This document shows positions 1 through 8,957 of a stretch of 8,958 nucleotides of DNA, piece after piece. Numbering within the stretch: the first letter of the stretch is position 1; each line of letters begins with the position of its first letter. Made by a program: the position numbers and the translations under genes. The DNA is taken from the IMG/VR virus record IMGVR_UViG_2703718848_000007; one strand, given 5' to 3'. This DNA comes from a virus (taxonomy: Duplodnaviria > Heunggongvirae > Uroviricota > Caudoviricetes). A model generated the notes under the pieces. The model was not told where the DNA came from. It saw only the letters and a list, made by a program, of their open reading frames with translations, and made no database searches.

Positions 1-20
1 CCCGCCTCGCCCGCCCGCTT
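1..20. other. partial cos site (cohesive-end sequence runs off the left edge of the window)
   Basis: Reverse complement of 1-11 is GGCGAGGCGGG, the first 11 nt of the P2/P4 19-nt cohesive end GGCGAGGCGGGGAAAGCAC as I recall it. Position next to the variable region downstream of A fits P2 architecture. Confidence 0.45.
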
Positions 21-136
21 CATGGGTCGATTTCAATGCAGTTGCATGAGTCCATTAAAAGCACATCAGTACTGGCAAAATAAAGATGCAGAAATTAATC
101 CTTGAAGATGCAAAAAAATGCAACGCAACGCACCTC

Positions 137-835
137 TTACGGCTTCGTCAATACAGACTTAAATTTATCATTAAATGGCTTAATTTGAGGTAATGTTAAT
201 TTTTTTACAAATGTTTTTGTCGTTGTGTGAACTACGACGCTACCTTCTCCAAGAGTATTCCCCTGACATTCTTTTACGAACCCCTCATCAGTTACTGATG
301 CGGTAATGCTCTCTGGAATTATAAGCGTCAATATATCACCATAGTCTTCTAAAACATGCGGTAACTTACCATCTATAAGCTTATGCGGGTTTACATAAAT
401 ATCTAAGGATTTATTGTTAGAAAATCGCAACCTCACCGACTGAATGTTACTCCTAACTTGTCTTTTGTTTGTTATAGTTATTGATATCGCTGTATTTTTG
501 ATACTCGGCAAGTGCAATGATGGAATTAACACCATACTATATCGAATGTCAATCTCCTCTGAATTTTCCTTTGCCGAACGGAGTGCTAACAACAATGATA
601 TCGCAGCAGCAGAAAATGCTCCCAACCCAGAAACCCAAGTACCCAACATAGTTAAAAAAGGTATTGTAATTGATTGGAATTTAGTGTCCCCATTCAAACC
701 AACACCACTATAGCCCACATAACACCCTATAAAAAAGAATAGACAAGCCGTTATTAAAACAAAAAATAAATGAATAGAGCTTATCCTTTTAAATTTCAAC
801 AAAAAATCTTTCAAAATAATTTTACATCTCTTCAT
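137..835 (-). CDS. two-helix membrane protein with about 145-aa C-terminal domain predicted cytoplasmic; unknown family (cargo gene 2)
   Basis: 232-codon ORF in clearly AT-rich DNA. AGGA lies 7 nt upstream of the ATG at 835. Translation has a strongly basic N-terminus (MKRCKIILKDFLLKFKR), two hydrophobic helices (IHLFFVLITACLFFFIGCYVGY and ITIPFLTMLGTWVSGLGAFSAAAISLLLAL) and a beta-rich soluble C-terminal domain. No family recognised by eye. Confidence 0.7.
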   Translation of the reverse strand: MKRCKIILKDFLLKFKRISSIHLFFVLITACLFFFIGCYVGYSGVGLNGDTKFQSITIPFLTMLGTWVSGLGAFSAAAISLLLALRSAKENSEEIDIRYSMVLIPSLHLPSIKNTAISITITNKRQVRSNIQSVRLRFSNNKSLDIYVNPHKLIDGKLPHVLEDYGDILTLIIPESITASVTDEGFVKECQGNTLGEGSVVVHTTTKTFVKKLTLPQIKPFNDKFKSVLTKP

Positions 836-892
836 TTTCTAATCCTGTATTAAAATCAGACACCAAGCTTTATTAATCACTATTTTTATGAT

Positions 893-917
893 TGCCAGCA
901 TAAATACTGGCATTTTT
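893..917 (+). terminator. candidate intrinsic terminator on the plus strand (antisense to the cargo genes)
   Basis: Stem TGCCAG (893-898) and CTGGCA (907-912) with 8-nt loop, followed directly by TTTTTATTATT. On the minus strand the same hairpin has no U-tract after it. Confidence 0.35.
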
Positions 918-933
918 ATTATTCTGGCAGAGT

Positions 934-1665
934 TCACTCACTTATAATTGATACAACCTCACCTGTTTCTACATTGACACGCGCAGCAATCGTCTGTTTC
1001 ACCACTCCGCCATAAGCATTAGTTCCGCGAAACGTGGTTTTCACAATGGCATGCGGGTCTTTATTCAAAACCAGATGATATACCGTTGACACATGTTTAT
1101 AAGATGAATCATCGTTCATATTATCTTTAATTAGTTTTTCCAAAGGACGATAAGAACCATCCCAACCACTAAAATTACTCTGAAATGTATCAAGATTGAT
1201 TTTATTGTTTAGTGAATTCGGGTCATTTTCATAATCATTAAAGCACCACCCAAGAACATCACCGAGTTTCAACTCATCATCTTTGGTAAATGTATACTCA
1301 CTCATGCAGGCATAAAACGCATCTGACGCGGTGGCTGGAACTTCCTTAAAATCAATGTAACTATTCACAATATCGTGTCGTGTTTTCTTTGACTCGTTCC
1401 GATATTCCTTGAGTGTTTTTTCACCATATTCGAATGTTTTTTGGACTTTGTGTTCTGCAACGGTTGATGTTTCAGTTTTAGCAACTGGCTGGCTTTTTTC
1501 TGTTGGATAGAGTATTGAACCAATTATGCCCAATACAAAACCTCCTCCGAGATAAACCGCACTTGCACGTTTGCGGCTTGGCATTCGCACCAGTGATGGT
1601 TTGATTAACCCGATGAAAAAAGCAACGAAAAAAGCGAGTGATAGAAAAGCGATTACAGTATCCAT
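934..1665 (-). CDS. two-helix membrane protein with about 190-aa C-terminal domain predicted periplasmic; unknown family (cargo gene 1)
   Basis: The ORF track extends to 1689, but that codon is GTG. The in-frame ATG at 1665 has AAGGAT about 5 nt upstream, so 243 aa is preferred. Helices TVIAFLSLAFFVAFFIGLI and VYLGGGFVLGIIGSILY are separated by a basic loop KPSLVRMPSRKRASA (positive-inside rule puts the loop in the cytoplasm). The C-terminal domain has two Cys (FYACMSEY, LGWCFNDY). DNA is AT-rich. Confidence 0.7.
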   Translation of the reverse strand: MDTVIAFLSLAFFVAFFIGLIKPSLVRMPSRKRASAVYLGGGFVLGIIGSILYPTEKSQPVAKTETSTVAEHKVQKTFEYGEKTLKEYRNESKKTRHDIVNSYIDFKEVPATASDAFYACMSEYTFTKDDELKLGDVLGWCFNDYENDPNSLNNKINLDTFQSNFSGWDGSYRPLEKLIKDNMNDDSSYKHVSTVYHLVLNKDPHAIVKTTFRGTNAYGGVVKQTIAARVNVETGEVVSIISE

Positions 1666-1686
1666 AGCTATCCTTTTTGCATCATC

Positions 1687-1715
1687 CACATAAAAAATCG
1701 ACCTTATGTTAGCAA
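1687..1715 (-). promoter_or_regulatory. tentative sigma70-type promoter for cargo gene 1
   Basis: On the minus strand TTGCTA (plus 1710-1715), a 17-nt spacer, then TATGTG (plus 1687-1692), about 20 nt upstream of the ATG at 1665. Weak -10, by-eye call only. Confidence 0.25.
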
Positions 1716-1746
1716 CAGGAAGCTTACTTTTGAATATTTGTAAGTT

Positions 1747-1771
1747 GTTAGCTTGAGCTCTCCGAGCTAAC
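1747..1771. repeat. inverted repeat GTTAGCT / AGCTAAC around a GAGCTC-containing loop, at the AT-rich to GC-rich transition
   Basis: Read directly: 7-bp arms at 1747-1753 and 1765-1771 with an 11-nt loop; no U-tract on either side. Confidence 0.5.
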
Positions 1772-1851
1772 TCCTTTCAACCGTCAAAAAACAGCACCAT
1801 CACAGTAAAAATATGAATGTCAACTAACGCCTCGCTTCGCTCGTTGTTCAA

Positions 1852-1890
1852 CGCCGCCAGCCCTGAAAACAAGTTTCACGACTGGCGGCG
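1852..1890. repeat. 39-bp imperfect palindrome (about 17-bp arms, 2 mismatches)
   Basis: Left arm CGCCGCCAGCCCTGAAA pairs with right arm TTTCACGACTGGCGGCG; central loop ACAAG. Lies in the spacer between cargo gene 1 and the small gene downstream of A. Confidence 0.5.
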
Positions 1891-2100
1891 TTCTCTATCG
1901 TCTGCGTGGTGGTGGCGTAACTCTGGATTGACTGATATGGTTAAACCGCCCGTAATTATCCCGGACTATTTCGGCACACCCGACCAGCTCATCGGGCGTC
2001 AGATTTTCGTTGACCATAATCCGCTGTAAACGCTGAACAATAGCCATCAGCTTGATATTTTTAGTTTTATGGTGCGGTATCTCACTTGGCATTCTGTGCA

Positions 2101-2556
2101 TTATCCAAGCCACCCGTTTTGCTGTGCACGCCCCATCTGTTCATCTGAATAGTGCCATGCTCCATCCGTGGCAACCATTGCCCCGCCAGACATCCCCGTC
2201 TCTGGTTCATACATAACAGCAAGGCCGAGTTGATGCATAATTTCATGATTAATTCTGAATACCAGACCACGCTCACTAAGTTCTTTCCAGTTCACAATCT
2301 CATATGCGCCTGTATTAAGCCGCTCAATACTTAGCAAGACATAATCTTCCAGCCAGTCTGACAGGTCAGTAACATCTGTTATCCGGGCTTCAACCTTTCG
2401 CCCCGTATACACACCCTGCACCCATTCATGCAAAATCAACGTGTCCCCGCGCTCATAATTACGGTCATTTTTCCGAAACTCTGCGCGTTTCTTTCCTTCC
2501 AGCACAAGGTCGAAATATTTTGCGTGCAGCTTTACCTCGTGAATTTTTGCCATCAT
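2101..2556 (-). CDS. small protein with N-terminal ASCH/PUA-like (DUF3850-type) domain and a C-terminal segment carrying an HExxH motif
   Basis: Start ATG at 2556 overlaps the A stop codon (ATGA, plus 2553-2556), with GGAG 6-7 nt upstream. N-terminus KIHEVKLHAKYFDLVLEGKKRAEFRKNDRNYERGD matches the pattern I associate with DUF3850. C-terminal part contains NHEIMHQLG. The ORF track start at 2589 would overlap A by 37 nt and is less likely. Confidence 0.6.
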   Translation of the reverse strand: MMAKIHEVKLHAKYFDLVLEGKKRAEFRKNDRNYERGDTLILHEWVQGVYTGRKVEARITDVTDLSDWLEDYVLLSIERLNTGAYEIVNWKELSERGLVFRINHEIMHQLGLAVMYEPETGMSGGAMVATDGAWHYSDEQMGRAQQNGWLG

Positions 2557-4838
2557 GTCCACTCCATTACTGTTGAAAATCCCGGCCATTCATCAGCGAC
2601 CGGATACGTGAATTTTTTCCCGTCATAATTTACGGTTGCCCCACGCGCCAGCGCCTCAATCTCCCATCGCTGAGGCCTGATACCGTTCTGAGCAAGGTCA
2701 ACGCGGATACGGGTAATTTGCATTCGTTCCGGCCGGGTCAGTCTGGCCGATGGCGCTATTTCATGTGGTTTTAACGGGCTTCCGTTTCTTTGCTGGCGAT
2801 TTGGTCTTCTCAGTCCGTGTTTTAATGCTCCCCTGAGCGCCCTCACAACCTCCGGGTCATTCCATTCGATAACACCGTCATCTACCAGATTAAGCACTGC
2901 TGCGGCGTGTTCAGAAGGTGTGGGAGCCGGTAACGAAGCATCACCACCGGTGAGTTTTCCACAGTTATTGACAGGACTCCGAGGCGCGGCGATGCCGCTT
3001 TTTAAAGTCAAAGGCTCAACGACCGGAACTTTCGGCACAATGCGCCAATCCGTGGTTCTGGTGATATGAATATGACGCGCGCCGAGATGCGGTGCGTAAA
3101 TGCCGACCACTCTCTCGACTTCTTCCTCGTACTCGTTAACGTCATCCGACGGGCTACGGGCGACTCTGACAGTCTGACAATCGCGCGGAACATTTGCCCC
3201 ACCCTGCGCGCTGATATACAACGCAAAATCACCACTGTCTGCGGCGGCGCGTGCAGCCTCGACGCGCTCGTCAAACTCATCAGCAATGCTGACGCCGCGC
3301 GGCAATTTGCGTAGTTCACGGTAAGCCCCCATTGTCGGCAGGCCAACCGTTTTAAATTGCGGGATGCGCCACGTTGACGCCCATGCGGTAACAGCCGCTG
3401 CAGTGTCTTTCAGCGGCCTGCCGGTGTCGTTATCGAGCTGACCATCCAGTGCATAGCCGTCGATGTTTTTTGAAATGTATTTCGCGATATATCCCGCAGC
3501 ACCGCCCCGGTTAAGGTGTTTTGCCTGAAAACGGTTTCGCGCAGCTCCTCTTTCGTCTCCATCCTCTTTGAGCGCGTAGCGACGCATGATTTCGATAATC
3601 TGGTTACGCTGGCGTGGATTACAAAAAAGCATCATATGCCAGTGCGGCGTTCCGTCGTGGTGTGGCTCGACGACACGCAAACCGTAGACCTGTAAATCAT
3701 TATCCTTGAATGCCGTGCGCATCAGGCTCCAGATGCGGCAGAGATAACGCTGCGCATCCTTTGGATTAAATGCCTCATCGTTCCAGCCGTGATTAAGCTG
3801 AACGGTTTTACTTTCGCCTTTTCTGACCTGACGTGTCGGGTGATACTTTGACGGCGCGGTCAGCGTGATAAACATCCCCACATCACCCTCTGCGGCGGCG
3901 TAACGCTCAATACCGGCAATGGTGTTCATCAGCTCCATCCGGCGAATTTCAGGATTAGAAATACTGCCCATCACCTTACTGATAAGGTCGATGCGCTCGC
4001 CGGTTTCCCTGTTTTCGAGGTCACACGATTTAAGAAATTCCAGATTTGCCTGGCGGCGCGCACGCACATCACGAATGGCATGTTTACTGGCATAAGGAGA
4101 ACGGTCTTTATTGACCTCCCCGACAGCAATCAGTAACGCCTCATGCCAGCGCATACGCTGGCCTTTAAGCTGATGAGTCCACCACTCATCGTTAAACAGG
4201 CGGGCAATGGCAGAATATGCCTGCCTCGTGGTCATCTGCCCTTTACGGTATTTTTTCCAGTAAAGCGGGGAAATATTGAAAGCACGTGCAGCGCCAGCAA
4301 CATGACCATAGAGGTGAGCCTGCGCCTCATCCGTAAACAGCGATTCTTTTTCGCCATGTGCATCAACCCAGGCATCGCAGAGTTCCTCATACATCATGAA
4401 AAGCTGCGATGAGATACGGGCAGCAAACTTTTTCAGCTCCTTGTCATTCATCCCCGGCAGGCGCGCATACTGGTCGCGCTCTGCCAGAAACAGCAACGAC
4501 GCGTCGGTGTTCATTTCATGGCGCTGATTCACACGCTCAATGCGCGGCCATAAACGACGCTGAAAAGTGGATGTGAGGAAATAAAACCCGTGCACCGGGC
4601 TTTTATTGCGCCGGATGTAGTCATAGCGTGAAGTAAACAGCGAGCGCAAAAAGTAAGGCAGACGGTTAATCGTGGATAAAACCCCTTGCACCTGACGCAT
4701 CTCGTCACGTGTAAGGGGTCTTTCGCGCCCGACAGCCTCGCGTGGCGCGTTCCATGCATAAGCACCGGTAAACGCCTTACCGGTGCCTGCGGCAAATGCT
4801 GACGGAGGGACAAAACGCCCGGAGGCTTTAACGGCCAT
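2553..4838 (-). CDS. A: rolling-circle replication initiator (HUH endonuclease), phage P2 gpA family
   Basis: Translation contains the HUH-type motif PHWHMMLF and the paired-tyrosine motif GYIAKYISK. Starting at the in-frame ATG at 4838 gives 761 aa, matching the P2 gpA length as I recall it; the codon at 4880 used by the ORF track is TTG. Confidence 0.9.
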   Translation of the reverse strand: MAVKASGRFVPPSAFAAGTGKAFTGAYAWNAPREAVGRERPLTRDEMRQVQGVLSTINRLPYFLRSLFTSRYDYIRRNKSPVHGFYFLTSTFQRRLWPRIERVNQRHEMNTDASLLFLAERDQYARLPGMNDKELKKFAARISSQLFMMYEELCDAWVDAHGEKESLFTDEAQAHLYGHVAGAARAFNISPLYWKKYRKGQMTTRQAYSAIARLFNDEWWTHQLKGQRMRWHEALLIAVGEVNKDRSPYASKHAIRDVRARRQANLEFLKSCDLENRETGERIDLISKVMGSISNPEIRRMELMNTIAGIERYAAAEGDVGMFITLTAPSKYHPTRQVRKGESKTVQLNHGWNDEAFNPKDAQRYLCRIWSLMRTAFKDNDLQVYGLRVVEPHHDGTPHWHMMLFCNPRQRNQIIEIMRRYALKEDGDERGAARNRFQAKHLNRGGAAGYIAKYISKNIDGYALDGQLDNDTGRPLKDTAAAVTAWASTWRIPQFKTVGLPTMGAYRELRKLPRGVSIADEFDERVEAARAAADSGDFALYISAQGGANVPRDCQTVRVARSPSDDVNEYEEEVERVVGIYAPHLGARHIHITRTTDWRIVPKVPVVEPLTLKSGIAAPRSPVNNCGKLTGGDASLPAPTPSEHAAAVLNLVDDGVIEWNDPEVVRALRGALKHGLRRPNRQQRNGSPLKPHEIAPSARLTRPERMQITRIRVDLAQNGIRPQRWEIEALARGATVNYDGKKFTYPVADEWPGFSTVMEWT

Positions 4839-5103
4839 ATGAGCCAAAAGCCTCTGAACAACGCCTGCTGAGTTGCTCAACCTGCGCGTTTAAATCAGCA
4901 AAAGACTTTGCGCTTCCGGTCAGAATATCGTGATGCATCAGGCCGGAAACGAGCTGGCTTAATTTCGGATAATAACCAACCACCGCCAGCCATTCCTGAC
5001 CGGCGTTTTTACCGCTTTCCGCTCTCTTTTTCTCGTGGAGAATAAACTGAAAGCTGTCACTGGTAACGACATAACGTTCGCCAATTTCAATACGAATACT
5101 CAT
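4828..5103 (-). CDS. P2 orf83-like early protein, function unknown
   Basis: 91-aa ORF; its ATG overlaps the stop of the upstream gene (ATGA at 5100-5103) and its end overlaps the A start by 11 nt. Position immediately upstream of A as in P2. Confidence 0.7.
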   Translation of the reverse strand: MSIRIEIGERYVVTSDSFQFILHEKKRAESGKNAGQEWLAVVGYYPKLSQLVSGLMHHDILTGSAKSFADLNAQVEQLSRRCSEAFGSYGR

Positions 5104-7403: not shown

Positions 7404-8417
7404 ATGGCAATCAAAAAACTCGATGATGGTCGATATGAAGTGGACATCCGCCCTACTGGACGTAACGGAAAACGCATCCGTAGGAAGTTTGATAAGAAAA
7501 GCGAAGCTGTCGCTTTCGAAAAATACACGTTGTACAACCACCACAATAAAGAATGGCTATCAAAACCAACAGACAAACGACGTCTGTCGGAACTGACACA
7601 GATCTGGTGGGATTTAAAGGGTAAACACGAAGAGCATGGGAAATCTAATCTTGGAAAAATTGAAATCTTCACAAAAATAACGAATGACCCATGCGCATTT
7701 CAAATCACGAAATCCCTTATCAGCCAGTACTGCGCCACCCGAAGAAGTCAGGGTATTAAACCTTCGAGTATCAATCGTGATTTAACATGTATTAGCGGCA
7801 TGTTTACAGCCCTGATTGAAGCGGAGTTATTCTTTGGTGAGCACCCTATCAGAGGGACAAAGAGGCTTAAGGAGGAAAAACCAGAAACAGGCTATCTCAC
7901 ACAGGAAGAAATTGCCTTACTGCTTGCAGCACTTGACGGCGACAATAAAAAGATTGCGATTCTTTGCCTGAGTACAGGAGCACGTTGGGGAGAAGCAGCT
8001 CGTTTGAAAGCAGAAAATATCATCCATAACCGCGTCACGTTTGTTAAAACGAAAACAAACAAACCACGCACCGTCCCGATTTCAGAGGCTGTTGCCAAAA
8101 TGATCGCGGATAACAAACGAGGTTTTTTATTCCCTGATGCTGATTACCCTCGCTTCAGACGAACAATGAAAGCAATAAAACCGGATTTGCCAATGGGGCA
8201 AGCCACACATGCACTAAGGCACAGCTTTGCCACTCATTTCATGATTAATGGAGGAAGTATTATCACGCTACAACGGATACTAGGTCACACGCGGATTGAG
8301 CAAACTATGGTTTACGCTCATTTTGCGCCAGAGTACCTTCAGGACGCCATTTCTCTTAATCCGCTAAGAGGTGGTACTGAGGCCGAGAGTGTCCACACAG
8401 TGTCCACAGTAGAGTAA
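7404..8417 (+). CDS. int: tyrosine recombinase integrase, P2 Int family
   Basis: 337 aa. C-terminal catalytic signature HALRHSFATHF ... LGHTRIEQTMVYAHF (His-x-x-Arg box and Tyr nucleophile). GGAGGG 7 nt upstream of the ATG. Adjacent to the att core. Confidence 0.9.
   Translation: MAIKKLDDGRYEVDIRPTGRNGKRIRRKFDKKSEAVAFEKYTLYNHHNKEWLSKPTDKRRLSELTQIWWDLKGKHEEHGKSNLGKIEIFTKITNDPCAFQITKSLISQYCATRRSQGIKPSSINRDLTCISGMFTALIEAELFFGEHPIRGTKRLKEEKPETGYLTQEEIALLLAALDGDNKKIAILCLSTGARWGEAARLKAENIIHNRVTFVKTKTNKPRTVPISEAVAKMIADNKRGFLFPDADYPRFRRTMKAIKPDLPMGQATHALRHSFATHFMINGGSIITLQRILGHTRIEQTMVYAHFAPEYLQDAISLNPLRGGTEAESVHTVSTVE
8390..8408. repeat. two direct repeats of TGTCCACA (TGTGGACA on the other strand), probable Int arm-type binding sites
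   Basis: Copies at 8390-8397 and 8401-8408, 11 bp apart, inside the last codons of int (encoding HTVSTV). TGTGGACA is the P2 Int arm-site consensus as I recall it. Confidence 0.5.
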
Positions 8418-8681: not shown

Positions 8682-8957
8682 TCACTCTCCACATTTGAAT
8701 GTCAGACGAGCGACGCCATGTAATCCTGCACCTTCTGTCTTCAGGTCAACTATCTGCATTTTTTTGCCCTGAGTAACACAGAAATGGGCTGCATCATTTT
8801 TTACTATATTTTCTGCACCAGATATTCTGCCCCTGGCTAAAGAAGCTTCGGCTTCGGTGTAGTATTGGTTATCGAGTTTACGCTGAATATTACTTTTATA
8901 TGCAAGACCAAATTTACCGATACTTGTCTCATCATTATGCACAGCACAACCAGACAT
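8682..8957 (-). CDS. partial ORF in non-phage flanking DNA, unknown product; N-terminus may lie beyond the window
   Basis: Open frame runs to the window edge; LSGC-like context at the N-terminus could be a lipobox if translation starts further upstream. No family recognised. Confidence 0.4.
   Translation of the reverse strand: MSGCAVHNDETSIGKFGLAYKSNIQRKLDNQYYTEAEASLARGRISGAENIVKNDAAHFCVTQGKKMQIVDLKTEGAGLHGVARLTFKCGE

What the first reader, a model, noticed from the sequence alone, without database searches (positions are those of the whole stretch)
137..1715. Two-gene membrane-protein cassette in the cos-proximal variable hotspot of a P2-like phage: candidate undescribed defence or exclusion module
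Seen in sequence: between the partial cos site and the replication gene A, where P2 carries old and tin, this element has two same-strand genes in AT-rich DNA (by eye about one-third G+C, against a visibly GC-richer backbone). Each encodes an N-terminal pair of transmembrane helices plus a soluble domain of about 145-190 aa that I cannot place in any family. Topology by the positive-inside rule puts one soluble domain in the periplasm and the other in the cytoplasm, which would suit an envelope sensor paired with an inner effector. Established knowledge: this locus in P2-like prophages is a recognised hotspot for anti-phage systems. Inference: the cassette is a horizontally acquired exclusion or abortive-infection module; it does not look like old, tin, or any of the retron, Gabija or PARIS-type occupants I know for this locus.
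Basis: partly seen in the sequence, partly recalled or inferred. Interest (0 to 1): 0.85.

Follow-up and report, generated by a model that had tools for sequence, protein, structure and literature searches.

The report
Two independent prophage membrane genes
The two membrane-protein genes next to the cos site of this P2-like prophage are real, but they are not a paired system: one is the homologue of phage 186 gene orf97, long recorded as blocking 186 infection, and the other is a separate, uncharacterised cargo gene that is a reasonable but untested anti-phage candidate.

Summary
Two minus-strand genes (137-835, 232 aa; 934-1665, 243 aa) lie in AT-rich DNA (36% GC, against 54% in gene A) between a partial cos site and gene A. 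Each has an N-terminal TM hairpin. One soluble domain is predicted periplasmic and the other cytoplasmic. Neither protein hits Pfam, NCBIfam or PADLOC.

The "undescribed two-gene cassette" reading does not hold. ORF2 is 79% identical to Orf97 of coliphage 186. The GenBank record for that gene says "expression from plasmid blocks 186 infection". In 186 it stands alone as the last gene before cos. The family is found across Enterobacterales.

ORF1 belongs to a separate, diffuse family (TM hairpin plus a cytoplasmic Ig-like β-sandwich). It follows orf97 in only 21 of 95 sampled orf97 loci. It also occurs in P2-type hotspots without orf97 and in unrelated Pseudomonas prophages. In matched phage pairs its synonymous divergence is 8- to 14-fold higher than ORF2's.

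Best reading: two independent single-gene accessory modules. ORF2 is probably an envelope-level superinfection-exclusion protein. ORF1 is an untested candidate single-gene defence cargo. Interest is moderate.

The parts
1..11 (.). Partial cos site: reverse complement of the first 11 nt of the P2-type 19-nt cohesive end.
   Evidence: Window 1-11 is CCCGCCTCGCC. P2 cosL is GGCGAGGCGGGGAAAGCAC, annotated in AF063097.
137..835 (-). ORF1, 232 aa. It has an N-terminal amphipathic helix, a TM hairpin (conserved second helix MLGxWVSGxGALAAVxVSLWLA) and a cytoplasmic Ig-like beta-sandwich with a C-terminal helix. It is an independent cargo gene in the variable slot and its function is unknown.
836..933 (-). 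98-nt ORF2-ORF1 spacer with a 7-bp hairpin (893-912). Homology between prophages that carry different cargo breaks at the ORF2 stop, around 943-959.
   Evidence: Hairpin. Breakpoints come from the hit coordinates (many hits start at query 943-959).
934..1665 (-). ORF2, 243 aa, homologue of coliphage 186 Orf97. It has an N-out TM hairpin with a strongly basic cytoplasmic loop (KPSLVRMPSRKRAS), a variable linker (~55-78) and a conserved periplasmic domain. That domain has an HdeA-like helical half with two invariant Cys (C120, C141) and a cystatin/NTF2-like alpha+beta half.
1666..1825 (-). About 160-nt ORF2 leader, specific to P2-type orf97 modules and 96% conserved among four E. coli prophages. 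It starts with a perfect TTGACA at 1824-1819 but has no convincing -10 hexamer and no LexA box. The promoter is unresolved.
   Evidence: Alignment A4. Promoter scan found nothing on the minus strand here. The LexA-box search found none in this interval. The fold is not significant, z -1.2.
1826..1893 (-). Conserved 68-nt GC-rich hairpin element (19-nt arms at 1850-1868 and 1874-1892). It marks the point where homology to P2 ends. It acts as a repeated module boundary around orf97.
   Evidence: Inverted repeat I2. The P2 match ends at 1822. Position relative to orf97 in 95 loci: downstream in 55, upstream in 17, on both sides in 4. In 186 it lies between orf97 and terminator t95b.
1895..2589 (-). 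Backbone flank, not part of the cargo: a 68-aa small ORF (1895-2101) and a DUF3850/ASCH gene (2101-2589). Both are conserved with P2-type phages and lie directly downstream of gene A.
   Evidence: Pfam DUF3850, DUF7415 and ASCH. RefSeq contexts. A DUF3850 gene is also the third gene of the P2 old-tin region cloned by Rousset.

Best explanation
The region holds two independent, single-gene accessory modules of a P2-type prophage, not a two-component system.

1. ORF2 (934-1665) is a member of the Orf97 family of coliphage 186. It is an inner-membrane protein whose conserved domain of about 190 aa faces the periplasm. The most likely function is superinfection exclusion of P2/186-like phages at the envelope. 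The domain has only binding-type folds and is probably disulfide-stabilised. It would interfere with formation or use of the DNA-delivery conduit across the periplasm and inner membrane, in the way P22 SieA or T4 Imm act. In 186 the gene is switched on together with the Tum antirepressor from the LexA-controlled p95 promoter. In this window tum and the LexA box are absent, so expression must come from its own leader or from read-through of the early operon.

2. ORF1 (137-835) occupies the truly variable slot next to cos. It belongs to a diffuse family of prophage morons: a TM hairpin plus a cytoplasmic Ig-like beta-sandwich with no catalytic fold. The most likely role is a stand-alone membrane-anchored defence or exclusion protein. 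The cytoplasmic domain would bind a phage or host component and the hairpin would act at the membrane.

Shown: homology, architecture, predicted topology, distribution, independence of the two genes, purifying selection.
Inferred: the step that Orf97 blocks, any anti-phage role of ORF1, and how either gene is expressed.
For: ORF2 = Orf97:
- 78.8% aa identity over 241 of 243 residues to 186 orf97; phrog_3403 E 3.9e-145.
- The NC_001317 annotation reads 'expression from plasmid blocks 186 infection'. The operon is p95(LexA)-tum-t95a-orf97-t95b. BTP5 tum/orf97 are cited to Brumby 1996 in PMC5322425.
- The family has a constant length (~243 aa) across Enterobacterales and invariant C120/C141.
- Periplasmic orientation: the loop has 4.67 K/R and 0 D/E.

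Independence of the two genes:
- 186 has only 298 bp after orf97.
- 0 of 15 species-representative loci and 21 of 80 viral contigs have an ORF1 relative after orf97.
- About 86 complete E. coli genomes carry this ORF2 allele and 6 carry ORF1.
- At least 25 alternative cargo families follow orf97, including RT-like, DUF262-like and P-loop ATPase genes.
- The 68-nt linker lies between the two genes in 14 of the 21 loci that have both.
- dS is 0.26 for ORF1 and 0.02-0.03 for ORF2 in the same phage pairs.
- ORF1 relatives occur without orf97 in P2-type hotspots (L125, L126), in Pseudomonas siphovirus-type prophages and in an Onishia chromosome.

Prior for ORF1 being defensive: it sits in the gpA-gpQ defence hotspot. 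In addition, 6 of 8 randomly chosen unknown loci in P4 hotspots protected against phages (PMC13586616).
Against: - The Orf97 phenotype is known to me only from a GenBank note. The primary paper (Brumby et al. 1996) could not be read. A plasmid-expressed membrane protein can block infection non-specifically.
- The blocked step (adsorption, injection or later) is not documented anywhere I could find.
- No promoter could be assigned to either gene.
- ORF1 has no functional data at all. In P2, only 15-32% of unknown hotspot proteins score as antiviral by machine-learning predictors.
- Within Enterobacterales, most sampled ORF1 relatives do lie next to orf97, so facultative cooperation is not excluded.
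- PADLOC v2.0.0 dates from 2023. Newer defence catalogues were not searchable.
Confidence: 0.62

Rival explanations
1. One reading: ORF1 and ORF2 form one horizontally acquired two-gene defence cassette. The periplasmic domain of ORF2 senses events at the envelope. ORF1 acts as the inner (cytoplasmic-side) effector.
For: The genes are adjacent, on the same strand and both AT-rich. Their topologies are opposite. The exact pair recurs in E. coli prophages and in 3 phage records: 9W, and P22H4 under two accessions. The ORF1 family is the commonest single neighbour of orf97, in 21 of 89 loci. All 6 complete E. coli genomes with ORF1 also have ORF2.
Against: orf97 functions alone in 186, according to the GenBank note, and has no partner there. 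74 of 95 orf97 loci lack any ORF1 relative. ORF1 relatives exist without orf97, both inside and outside P2-like phages. ORF2 alleles that are 93-98% identical pair with ORF1 variants only 25-40% identical to each other, or with unrelated cargo. dS differs 8- to 14-fold between the two genes. A 68-nt linker separates the genes in 14 of 21 loci, and in 186 it is followed by terminator t95b.
Confidence: 0.07
2. Orf97/ORF2 is not primarily a defence gene. It serves the phage's own cycle, for example an SOS-induced envelope function during induction, lysis timing or virion release. The reported block of 186 infection is then an over-expression side effect.
For: In 186 it is co-transcribed with the Tum antirepressor from the LexA-repressed p95 promoter, so it is made at induction rather than in the quiescent lysogen. 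It behaves like a semi-core gene with strong conservation and constant length across many genera. It is not variable in the way typical hotspot cargo is.
Against: It is absent from P2 itself and from many P2-like phages, so it is dispensable. It moves as a discrete module to either side of the 68-nt element. In this window it is uncoupled from tum and LexA. Expression at induction also fits exclusion of sibling virions.
Confidence: 0.18
3. ORF1 is a non-defence moron. It could be a lysogenic-conversion or host-physiology membrane protein, or a regulator of an inner-membrane host complex. Under this reading it has no anti-phage role.
For: It has no similarity to any defence model. It has a generic Ig-like fold with no effector-like domain. 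Relatives sit at classic moron positions in Pseudomonas prophages. About a quarter of P2 hotspots carry non-defence cargo such as partition systems or the cytolethal distending toxin. Only 15-32% of unknown P2 hotspot proteins score as antiviral.
Against: The slot it occupies is elsewhere filled by defence-type genes (RT-like, DUF262-like, ATPases). Its alleles are mosaic and fast-diverging. Unknown hotspot genes had a high experimental hit rate in P4.
Confidence: 0.3

Closest known systems
Orf97 of coliphage 186 (NP_052294; PHROG 3403)
   Same: ORF2 is a full-length homologue: 78.8% aa identity, the same 243-aa length, the same TM hairpin and conserved C-domain. It holds the same general position between gene A and cos.
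   Different: In 186 it lies in the LexA-controlled p95 SOS operon, downstream of tum and upstream of the 68-nt element. Here there is no tum and no LexA box. The gene lies downstream of the element with a different ~160-nt leader and is followed by an extra cargo gene.
Inner-membrane superinfection-exclusion proteins (P22 SieA; also T4 Imm and HK97 gp15, both from my own knowledge)
   Same: This is a works-like comparison for ORF2. These are small, prophage-encoded inner-membrane proteins, sufficient on their own, that block infection by relatives of the encoding phage. SieA blocks DNA transport across the inner membrane (PMC10883804).
   Different: No sequence relationship was detected; ORF2 hits only PHROGs of unknown function. 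The step blocked by Orf97 is undocumented. Orf97 has a large folded periplasmic domain.
P2 old and tin (occupants of the same locus in P2)
   Same: Same gpA-gpQ cos-proximal hotspot, and an accessory phage-exclusion role.
   Different: The proteins are unrelated. Neither ORF has a PADLOC or Pfam hit. From my own knowledge, Old is a soluble ATPase/nuclease and Tin a soluble protein; neither is a membrane protein.
HdeA/HdeB, YmgD and Rap1a/Tai4-type small periplasmic helical proteins; cystatin/NTF2/VirB8-like alpha+beta modules
2TM-plus-beta-domain membrane effectors of abortive-infection systems (e.g. CBASS Cap15; from my own knowledge)
   Same: This is a works-like lead for ORF1 only: two N-terminal TM helices followed by a small all-beta cytoplasmic domain, about 200 aa in total.

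Membership tests
Orf97 family of coliphage 186 (applies to ORF2) | Full-length sequence homology to 186 Orf97 | tested here: met
   tblastn gives 78.8% identity over residues 1-241 (E 6e-119). phrog_3403 E 3.9e-145 covering profile positions 1-242 of 243.
Orf97 family of coliphage 186 (applies to ORF2) | Located between replication gene A and cos/portal gene Q in a P2/186-like phage, on the same strand as A | tested here: met
   Window order is A, DUF3850, small ORF, ORF2, ORF1, cos. The same placement holds in 186 and in 95 sampled loci.
Orf97 family of coliphage 186 (applies to ORF2) | Member of the LexA-repressed p95 SOS operon, downstream of tum | tested here: not met
   There is no tum/DinI gene in the window. 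No CTGT-N8-ACAG site (up to 1 mismatch) lies between 1666 and 1900. This is a feature of the 186 context, not of the protein family: 17 P2-type loci have the element upstream of orf97, as the window does, and the 21 P2-type viral contigs have the small ORF instead of tum upstream.
Orf97 family of coliphage 186 (applies to ORF2) | Expression blocks 186 infection | not testable with these tools
   Known only from the GenBank note on NC_001317. It requires plating assays.
Obligate two-gene defence system (ORF1 + ORF2) | Conserved co-occurrence of both genes across genomes | tested here: not met
   ORF1 relatives follow orf97 in 21 of 95 loci. orf97 stands alone in 186. ORF1 relatives occur without orf97 in L125, L126 and L130-L136, and in Pseudomonas and Onishia.
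Obligate two-gene defence system (ORF1 + ORF2) | Shared evolutionary history / co-transfer as one unit | tested here: not met
   dS is 0.26 for ORF1 and 0.02-0.03 for ORF2 in the same phage pairs. Homology breakpoints fall at the ORF2 stop. The 68-nt linker lies between the genes in 14 of 21 loci.
Obligate two-gene defence system (ORF1 + ORF2) | Both genes required for the phenotype | not testable with these tools
   This needs single and double deletions or clones.
Known defence systems (old, tin, retrons, Gabija, PARIS, Kiwa, CBASS/Pycsar TM effectors and others) | Match to a model in PADLOC-DB v2.0.0 or to a defence-associated Pfam domain | tested here: not met
   Both proteins have 0 PADLOC families at E up to 1 and no Pfam or NCBIfam family above threshold. 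Caveat: the PADLOC library dates from 2023.
Sie-type inner-membrane exclusion proteins (SieA, Imm and others) | Sequence homology to a characterised Sie protein | tested here: not met
   The PHROG scan returns only 'unknown function' families for ORF2 and ORF1. PDB profile searches return nothing significant. No direct pairwise comparison with SieA was run.
Sie-type inner-membrane exclusion proteins (SieA, Imm and others) | Inner-membrane location and block of DNA entry | not testable with these tools
   Membrane insertion is only predicted. An injection block needs DNA-entry assays.
HdeA/HdeB acid-stress chaperone family | Sequence membership (Pfam HdeA) rather than fold resemblance | tested here: not met

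The most novel reading that the evidence does not exclude
The ORF1 family is a new, widespread class of single-gene, membrane-anchored anti-phage proteins carried as morons by unrelated prophages, from Enterobacterales to Pseudomonas and Halomonadaceae. Its architecture is a TM hairpin with a conserved MLGxW...SLWLA helix plus a cytoplasmic Ig-like beta-sandwich. It is the commonest cargo next to orf97 in P2/186-like phages. The cytoplasmic sandwich would recognise a phage component and the hairpin would execute exclusion or abortive infection at the inner membrane.
Probability: 0.35. Interest if true: 0.6.

Novelty: new member of a known kind. Interest (0 to 1): 0.35.

Why it matters
This result corrects an attractive but wrong reading. 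What looks like a novel sensor-effector cassette is two separate modules.

It also links an almost forgotten observation to a structural and topological hypothesis that can now be tested. The hypothesis is a periplasm-facing, probably disulfide-stabilised binding domain anchored in the inner membrane.

The analysis shows that the orf97 family is widespread across Enterobacterales and that orf97 moves as a unit bounded by a repeated 68-nt linker.

It nominates one concrete, cheap experimental target. The ORF1 family is the commonest unknown occupant of the slot beside orf97 and also occurs in unrelated prophages.

If Orf97 blocks DNA entry of P2/186-like myoviruses, escape mutants would identify the phage proteins that build the trans-envelope conduit. 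To my knowledge this step is poorly understood for contractile-tail temperate phages.

Tried and rejected
- Known-family searches. Pfam, NCBIfam and PADLOC gave nothing for either protein. PHROGs gave only unknown-function families. PDB profile searches were empty or non-significant.
- Cap15-like effector idea for ORF1. Rejected as membership: there is no Cap15 hit, the fold is a sandwich rather than a barrel, and there is no partner gene.
- Regulation. The LexA-box search found no site upstream of ORF2. The sigma-70 and terminator scans gave nothing convincing on the coding strand upstream of either gene. By eye I found only a perfect -35 (TTGACA, 1824-1819) without a -10, and one weak 8/12 candidate, so the promoter is left unresolved. 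RNA folding of the ORF2 leader was not significant (z -1.2). Rfam found no known RNA in 1-2300.
- Literature. No paper in the library mentions 186 orf97 beyond PMC5322425. Accession searches returned nothing. Brumby et al. 1996 is not held. Neither Rousset 2022 nor the 2026 NAR paper tested an orf97- or ORF1-containing locus as far as text and supplements show.
- Searches that failed or added nothing. The search for related loci with the broad ORF1 alignment failed because no conserved stretch was available. Subtype queries in IMG/VR only re-found contigs already sampled.
- Plus-strand ORFs inside the region (444-713, 517-651, 1571-1693) were treated as antisense artefacts. The minus-strand frames show purifying selection and have deep homologue families.
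Full report
OBSERVATION

The window is the right arm of a P2-type (Peduovirus) prophage. Bases 1-11 are the reverse complement of the first 11 nt of the P2 cohesive end. Gene A is at 2553-4880 (Phage_GPA, E 6e-123) and the integrase at 7404-8417.

Between cos and A, all on the minus strand, lie four genes:
- ORF1 (137-835, 232 aa)
- ORF2 (934-1689 from GTG; more probably 934-1665 from an ATG with an AAGGA Shine-Dalgarno, 243 aa)
- a 68-aa ORF (1895-2101)
- a DUF3850/ASCH gene (2101-2589)

The block 137-1715 is 36.2% GC, against 53.7% for gene A. Both proteins begin with a TM hairpin.

In the ORF2 family the inter-helix loop averages 4.67 K/R and no acidic residues, while the N-terminus has 0.07 K/R. 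The loop is therefore cytoplasmic and the ~190-aa C-domain periplasmic. ORF1 has 7 K/R in its first 23 residues, which gives N-in/C-in and a cytoplasmic domain of ~147 aa.

Neither protein matches Pfam, NCBIfam or PADLOC. Both are under purifying selection (dN/dS 0.29-0.30 and 0.22-0.37).

WHAT ORF2 IS

A tblastn search of phage genomes shows ORF2 is 78.8% identical over its whole length to orf97 of coliphage 186. It matches phrog_3403 at E 3.9e-145.

It places the gene in the SOS operon: p95 (LexA site), tum, t95a (partial terminator), orf97, t95b. It is the last gene before the right end, with only 298 bp following it. Owen et al. 2017 cite the same operon for the Salmonella prophage BTP5.

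The family is large, with 159 clusters in the indexed search. It has a constant length (~243 aa) and spans Escherichia, Klebsiella, Enterobacter, Serratia, Yersinia, Photorhabdus, Pectobacterium and Erwinia. More distant relatives occur in Vibrio phage VHML (44%) and elsewhere.

The alignment shows four parts:
- a conserved hairpin and basic loop
- a variable linker
- a strongly conserved C-domain with two invariant cysteines (C120, C141)
- an NFSGWDGSYRPLEKLIK..MNDDSSYKH motif

These are periplasmic or secreted binding folds, which agrees with the topology. No enzyme fold appears. The two cysteines lie eight residues either side of the turn between helices 111-127 and 134-147, so a disulfide is plausible. 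That is an inference; I could not inspect coordinates.

WHAT ORF1 IS

The indexed search found only 14 close clusters, all from E. coli. The exhaustive HMMER search found 45 representatives at E up to 1e-3, of 110-232 aa (mostly ~190-220) and 24-43% identity apart from the close allele P0127 (79%).

They share the hairpin, with a conserved second helix (MLGxWVSGxGALAAVxVSLWLA), and a beta-rich domain with LP..L.YGE and C.G...V.TT motifs. The AlphaFold2 model is confident (pLDDT 88.6). It shows an N-terminal amphipathic helix, the hairpin, an Ig-like beta-sandwich and a C-terminal helix.

ARE THEY A PAIR?

Several independent lines say no.

1. orf97 without ORF1.
- 186 has no room for a partner.
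- None of 15 species-representative genome loci has an ORF1 relative, even by family HMM, and 21 of 80 viral contigs do.
- In complete E. coli genomes, 86 of 5426 carry this ORF2 allele and 6 carry ORF1.

2. The slot after orf97 is a true cargo slot. In 89 loci with an identifiable portal gene, the gap ranges from ~0.13-0.5 kb (empty or truncated; ~485 bp as in 186) to 3.4 kb. It holds at least 25 cargo families:
- the ORF1 family (21 loci)
- a 260-aa protein with a C-terminal TM helix (17 loci, as in IHE3034)
- several 310-430-aa proteins
- an RT-like protein
- a DUF262-like protein
- a P-loop ATPase

3. ORF1 without orf97.
- Metagenome contigs L125 (gpA-tum-ORF1fam-Q) and L126 (gpA-DUF3850-ORF1fam-Q) lack orf97. 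L130-L136 lack any P2 backbone.
- Pseudomonas relatives sit at moron positions in siphovirus-type prophages. One lies between the Mu-F-like head gene and the scaffold gene. The other lies between the late-regulator region and the lysis cassette.
- An Onishia relative lies in a chromosomal island.

4. Different histories.
- In the same phage pairs, ORF1 has dS 0.26 and ORF2 has dS 0.02-0.03.
- All ORF1 amino-acid differences fall in residues 1-155 (H10), or in 1-155 plus position 178 (P22H4). This indicates recombination inside ORF1.
- ORF2 alleles that are 93-98% identical pair with ORF1 variants only 25-40% identical to each other.

5. A module boundary.
- A 68-nt GC-rich hairpin element (window 1826-1893; 19-nt arms) marks where homology to P2 ends.
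- In 95 orf97 loci it lies just downstream of orf97 in 55 (186-type; in 186 it precedes terminator t95b). It lies upstream in 17 (P2-type, as here) and on both sides in 4.
- In 14 of the 21 loci with an ORF1 relative it lies between the two genes.
- orf97 therefore behaves as a discrete unit bounded by a repeated linker, and ORF1 as separate cargo.

A caveat remains. Within Enterobacterales most sampled ORF1 relatives do lie next to orf97. This may simply reflect that the cargo slot adjoins orf97 in these phage lineages. Facultative cooperation is not excluded.

HOW IT MOST LIKELY WORKS

ORF2. The recorded phenotype of its 186 homologue, the inner-membrane anchoring and the periplasm-facing binding-type domain together point to superinfection exclusion at the envelope. 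The most probable mechanism is interference with the DNA-delivery conduit of P2/186-like phages. This would be analogous to P22 SieA, which is an inner-membrane protein, sufficient alone, and specific for relatives of its own phage (PMC10883804).

In 186 the LexA control means the protein is made at induction. That would protect induced cells, and spare sibling virions, from futile superinfection. Here tum and the LexA box are absent. The conserved ~160-nt leader starts with a perfect TTGACA but has no convincing -10. Expression may therefore come from a weak promoter of its own or from read-through of the early operon. This step is unresolved.

ORF1. The only supported statements are these:
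- It is a membrane-tethered cytoplasmic binding module without a catalytic domain.
- It sits in a slot otherwise filled by defence-type genes.
- It is carried as a moron by unrelated prophages.

A stand-alone exclusion or abortive-infection role is the best guess, at roughly 35-45%. The priors are mixed: 6 of 8 unknown P4 hotspot loci were protective, but only 15-32% of unknown P2 hotspot proteins score as antiviral (PMC13586616).

COMPARISON WITH WHAT IS KNOWN, AND NOVELTY

ORF2 is a member of an already named family, with a recorded but mechanistically unexplored phenotype.

The locus arrangement is already catalogued as "DUF3850/ASCH + hypothetical x3" in Rousset et al. 2022, Table S5A. Orf97-type accessions recur hundreds of times in that table next to diverse cargo. 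None of them appears among the tested systems.

ORF1 is uncharacterised. If it is defensive, it would be a new family of a known kind: single-gene membrane proteins in prophage hotspots.

The finding as posed, a novel two-gene module, is not supported. What remains is of moderate interest: a testable structural hypothesis for Orf97, and a well-defined candidate gene family.

LIMITS

- The Orf97 phenotype rests on a database note. The primary paper could not be read.
- PADLOC is the 2023 release.
- afdb50 was unavailable.
- No expression data were available for this prophage type.

Noticed in passing
window 1826-1893 (minus strand); also L005 4845-4911 and both flanks of orf97 in L043, L044, L050, L051: A conserved 68-nt GC-rich hairpin element (arms 1850-1868 and 1874-1892) marks the end of P2 homology. 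It lies downstream of orf97 in 186-type phages, upstream in P2-type phages, and on both sides in 4 contigs. It looks like a repeated linker that mediates modular exchange. It is not a canonical terminator (no T-run) and has no Rfam match.
   Followed up: partly
window 104-116 and 1674-1686: A 13-nt inverted repeat (GAAGATGCAAAAA / TTTTTGCATCATC, 92% complementary) brackets the whole ORF1-ORF2 block almost exactly. It may be chance in AT-rich DNA.
   Followed up: no
window 1791-1817 and 2052-2078: A 27-nt inverted repeat (81% complementary) flanks the 68-aa ORF together with the hairpin element.
   Followed up: no
window 83-132: Short direct repeats between the ORF1 stop and cos: AAGATGCA at 83-90 and 105-112, followed by ATGCAACGCAACGCA at 118-132. 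They could be protein-binding sites near cos. Seen by eye only.
   Followed up: no
window 137-835 compared with L001 and L004: ORF1 alleles are mosaic. Residues 156-232 are identical (H10) or differ at a single position, 178 (P22H4). Residues 1-155 carry all the other 31-33 amino-acid differences (dS about 0.26). This implies a recombination breakpoint inside the gene.
   Followed up: partly
L001 3137-3718; L004 145-414 and 942-1541: Public annotations truncate both genes. RefSeq starts ORF1 of strain H10 at an internal codon (193 aa, losing TM1), although the full 232-codon frame is intact. The P22H4 record annotates only an 89-aa fragment of ORF1 and a 199-aa Orf97.
   Followed up: partly
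L003 3098-3880 (E. coli IHE3034) and 16 other loci: The second commonest cargo after orf97 is an unrelated ~260-aa protein with a single C-terminal TM helix and no family assignment. It is another untested candidate.
   Followed up: no
L087 5783-7339; L050 7321-8382; L018 6801-8528: Other occupants of the same slot look like classic defence genes: an RT-like 518-aa protein (YRDD motif), a DUF262-like protein (DGQQRL motif) and a 575-aa P-loop ATPase. These were judged from motifs only, not from HMM scans.
   Followed up: no
hit H7, NZ_CP182374.1 2156325-2159725: In one E. coli genome the matching region is interrupted by an IS3-family transposase.
   Followed up: no
window 8682-8957 (minus strand): A 91-aa ORF lies beyond the integrase at the right edge of the window. 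It is presumably host DNA or the attachment-site flank. It was not examined.
   Followed up: no
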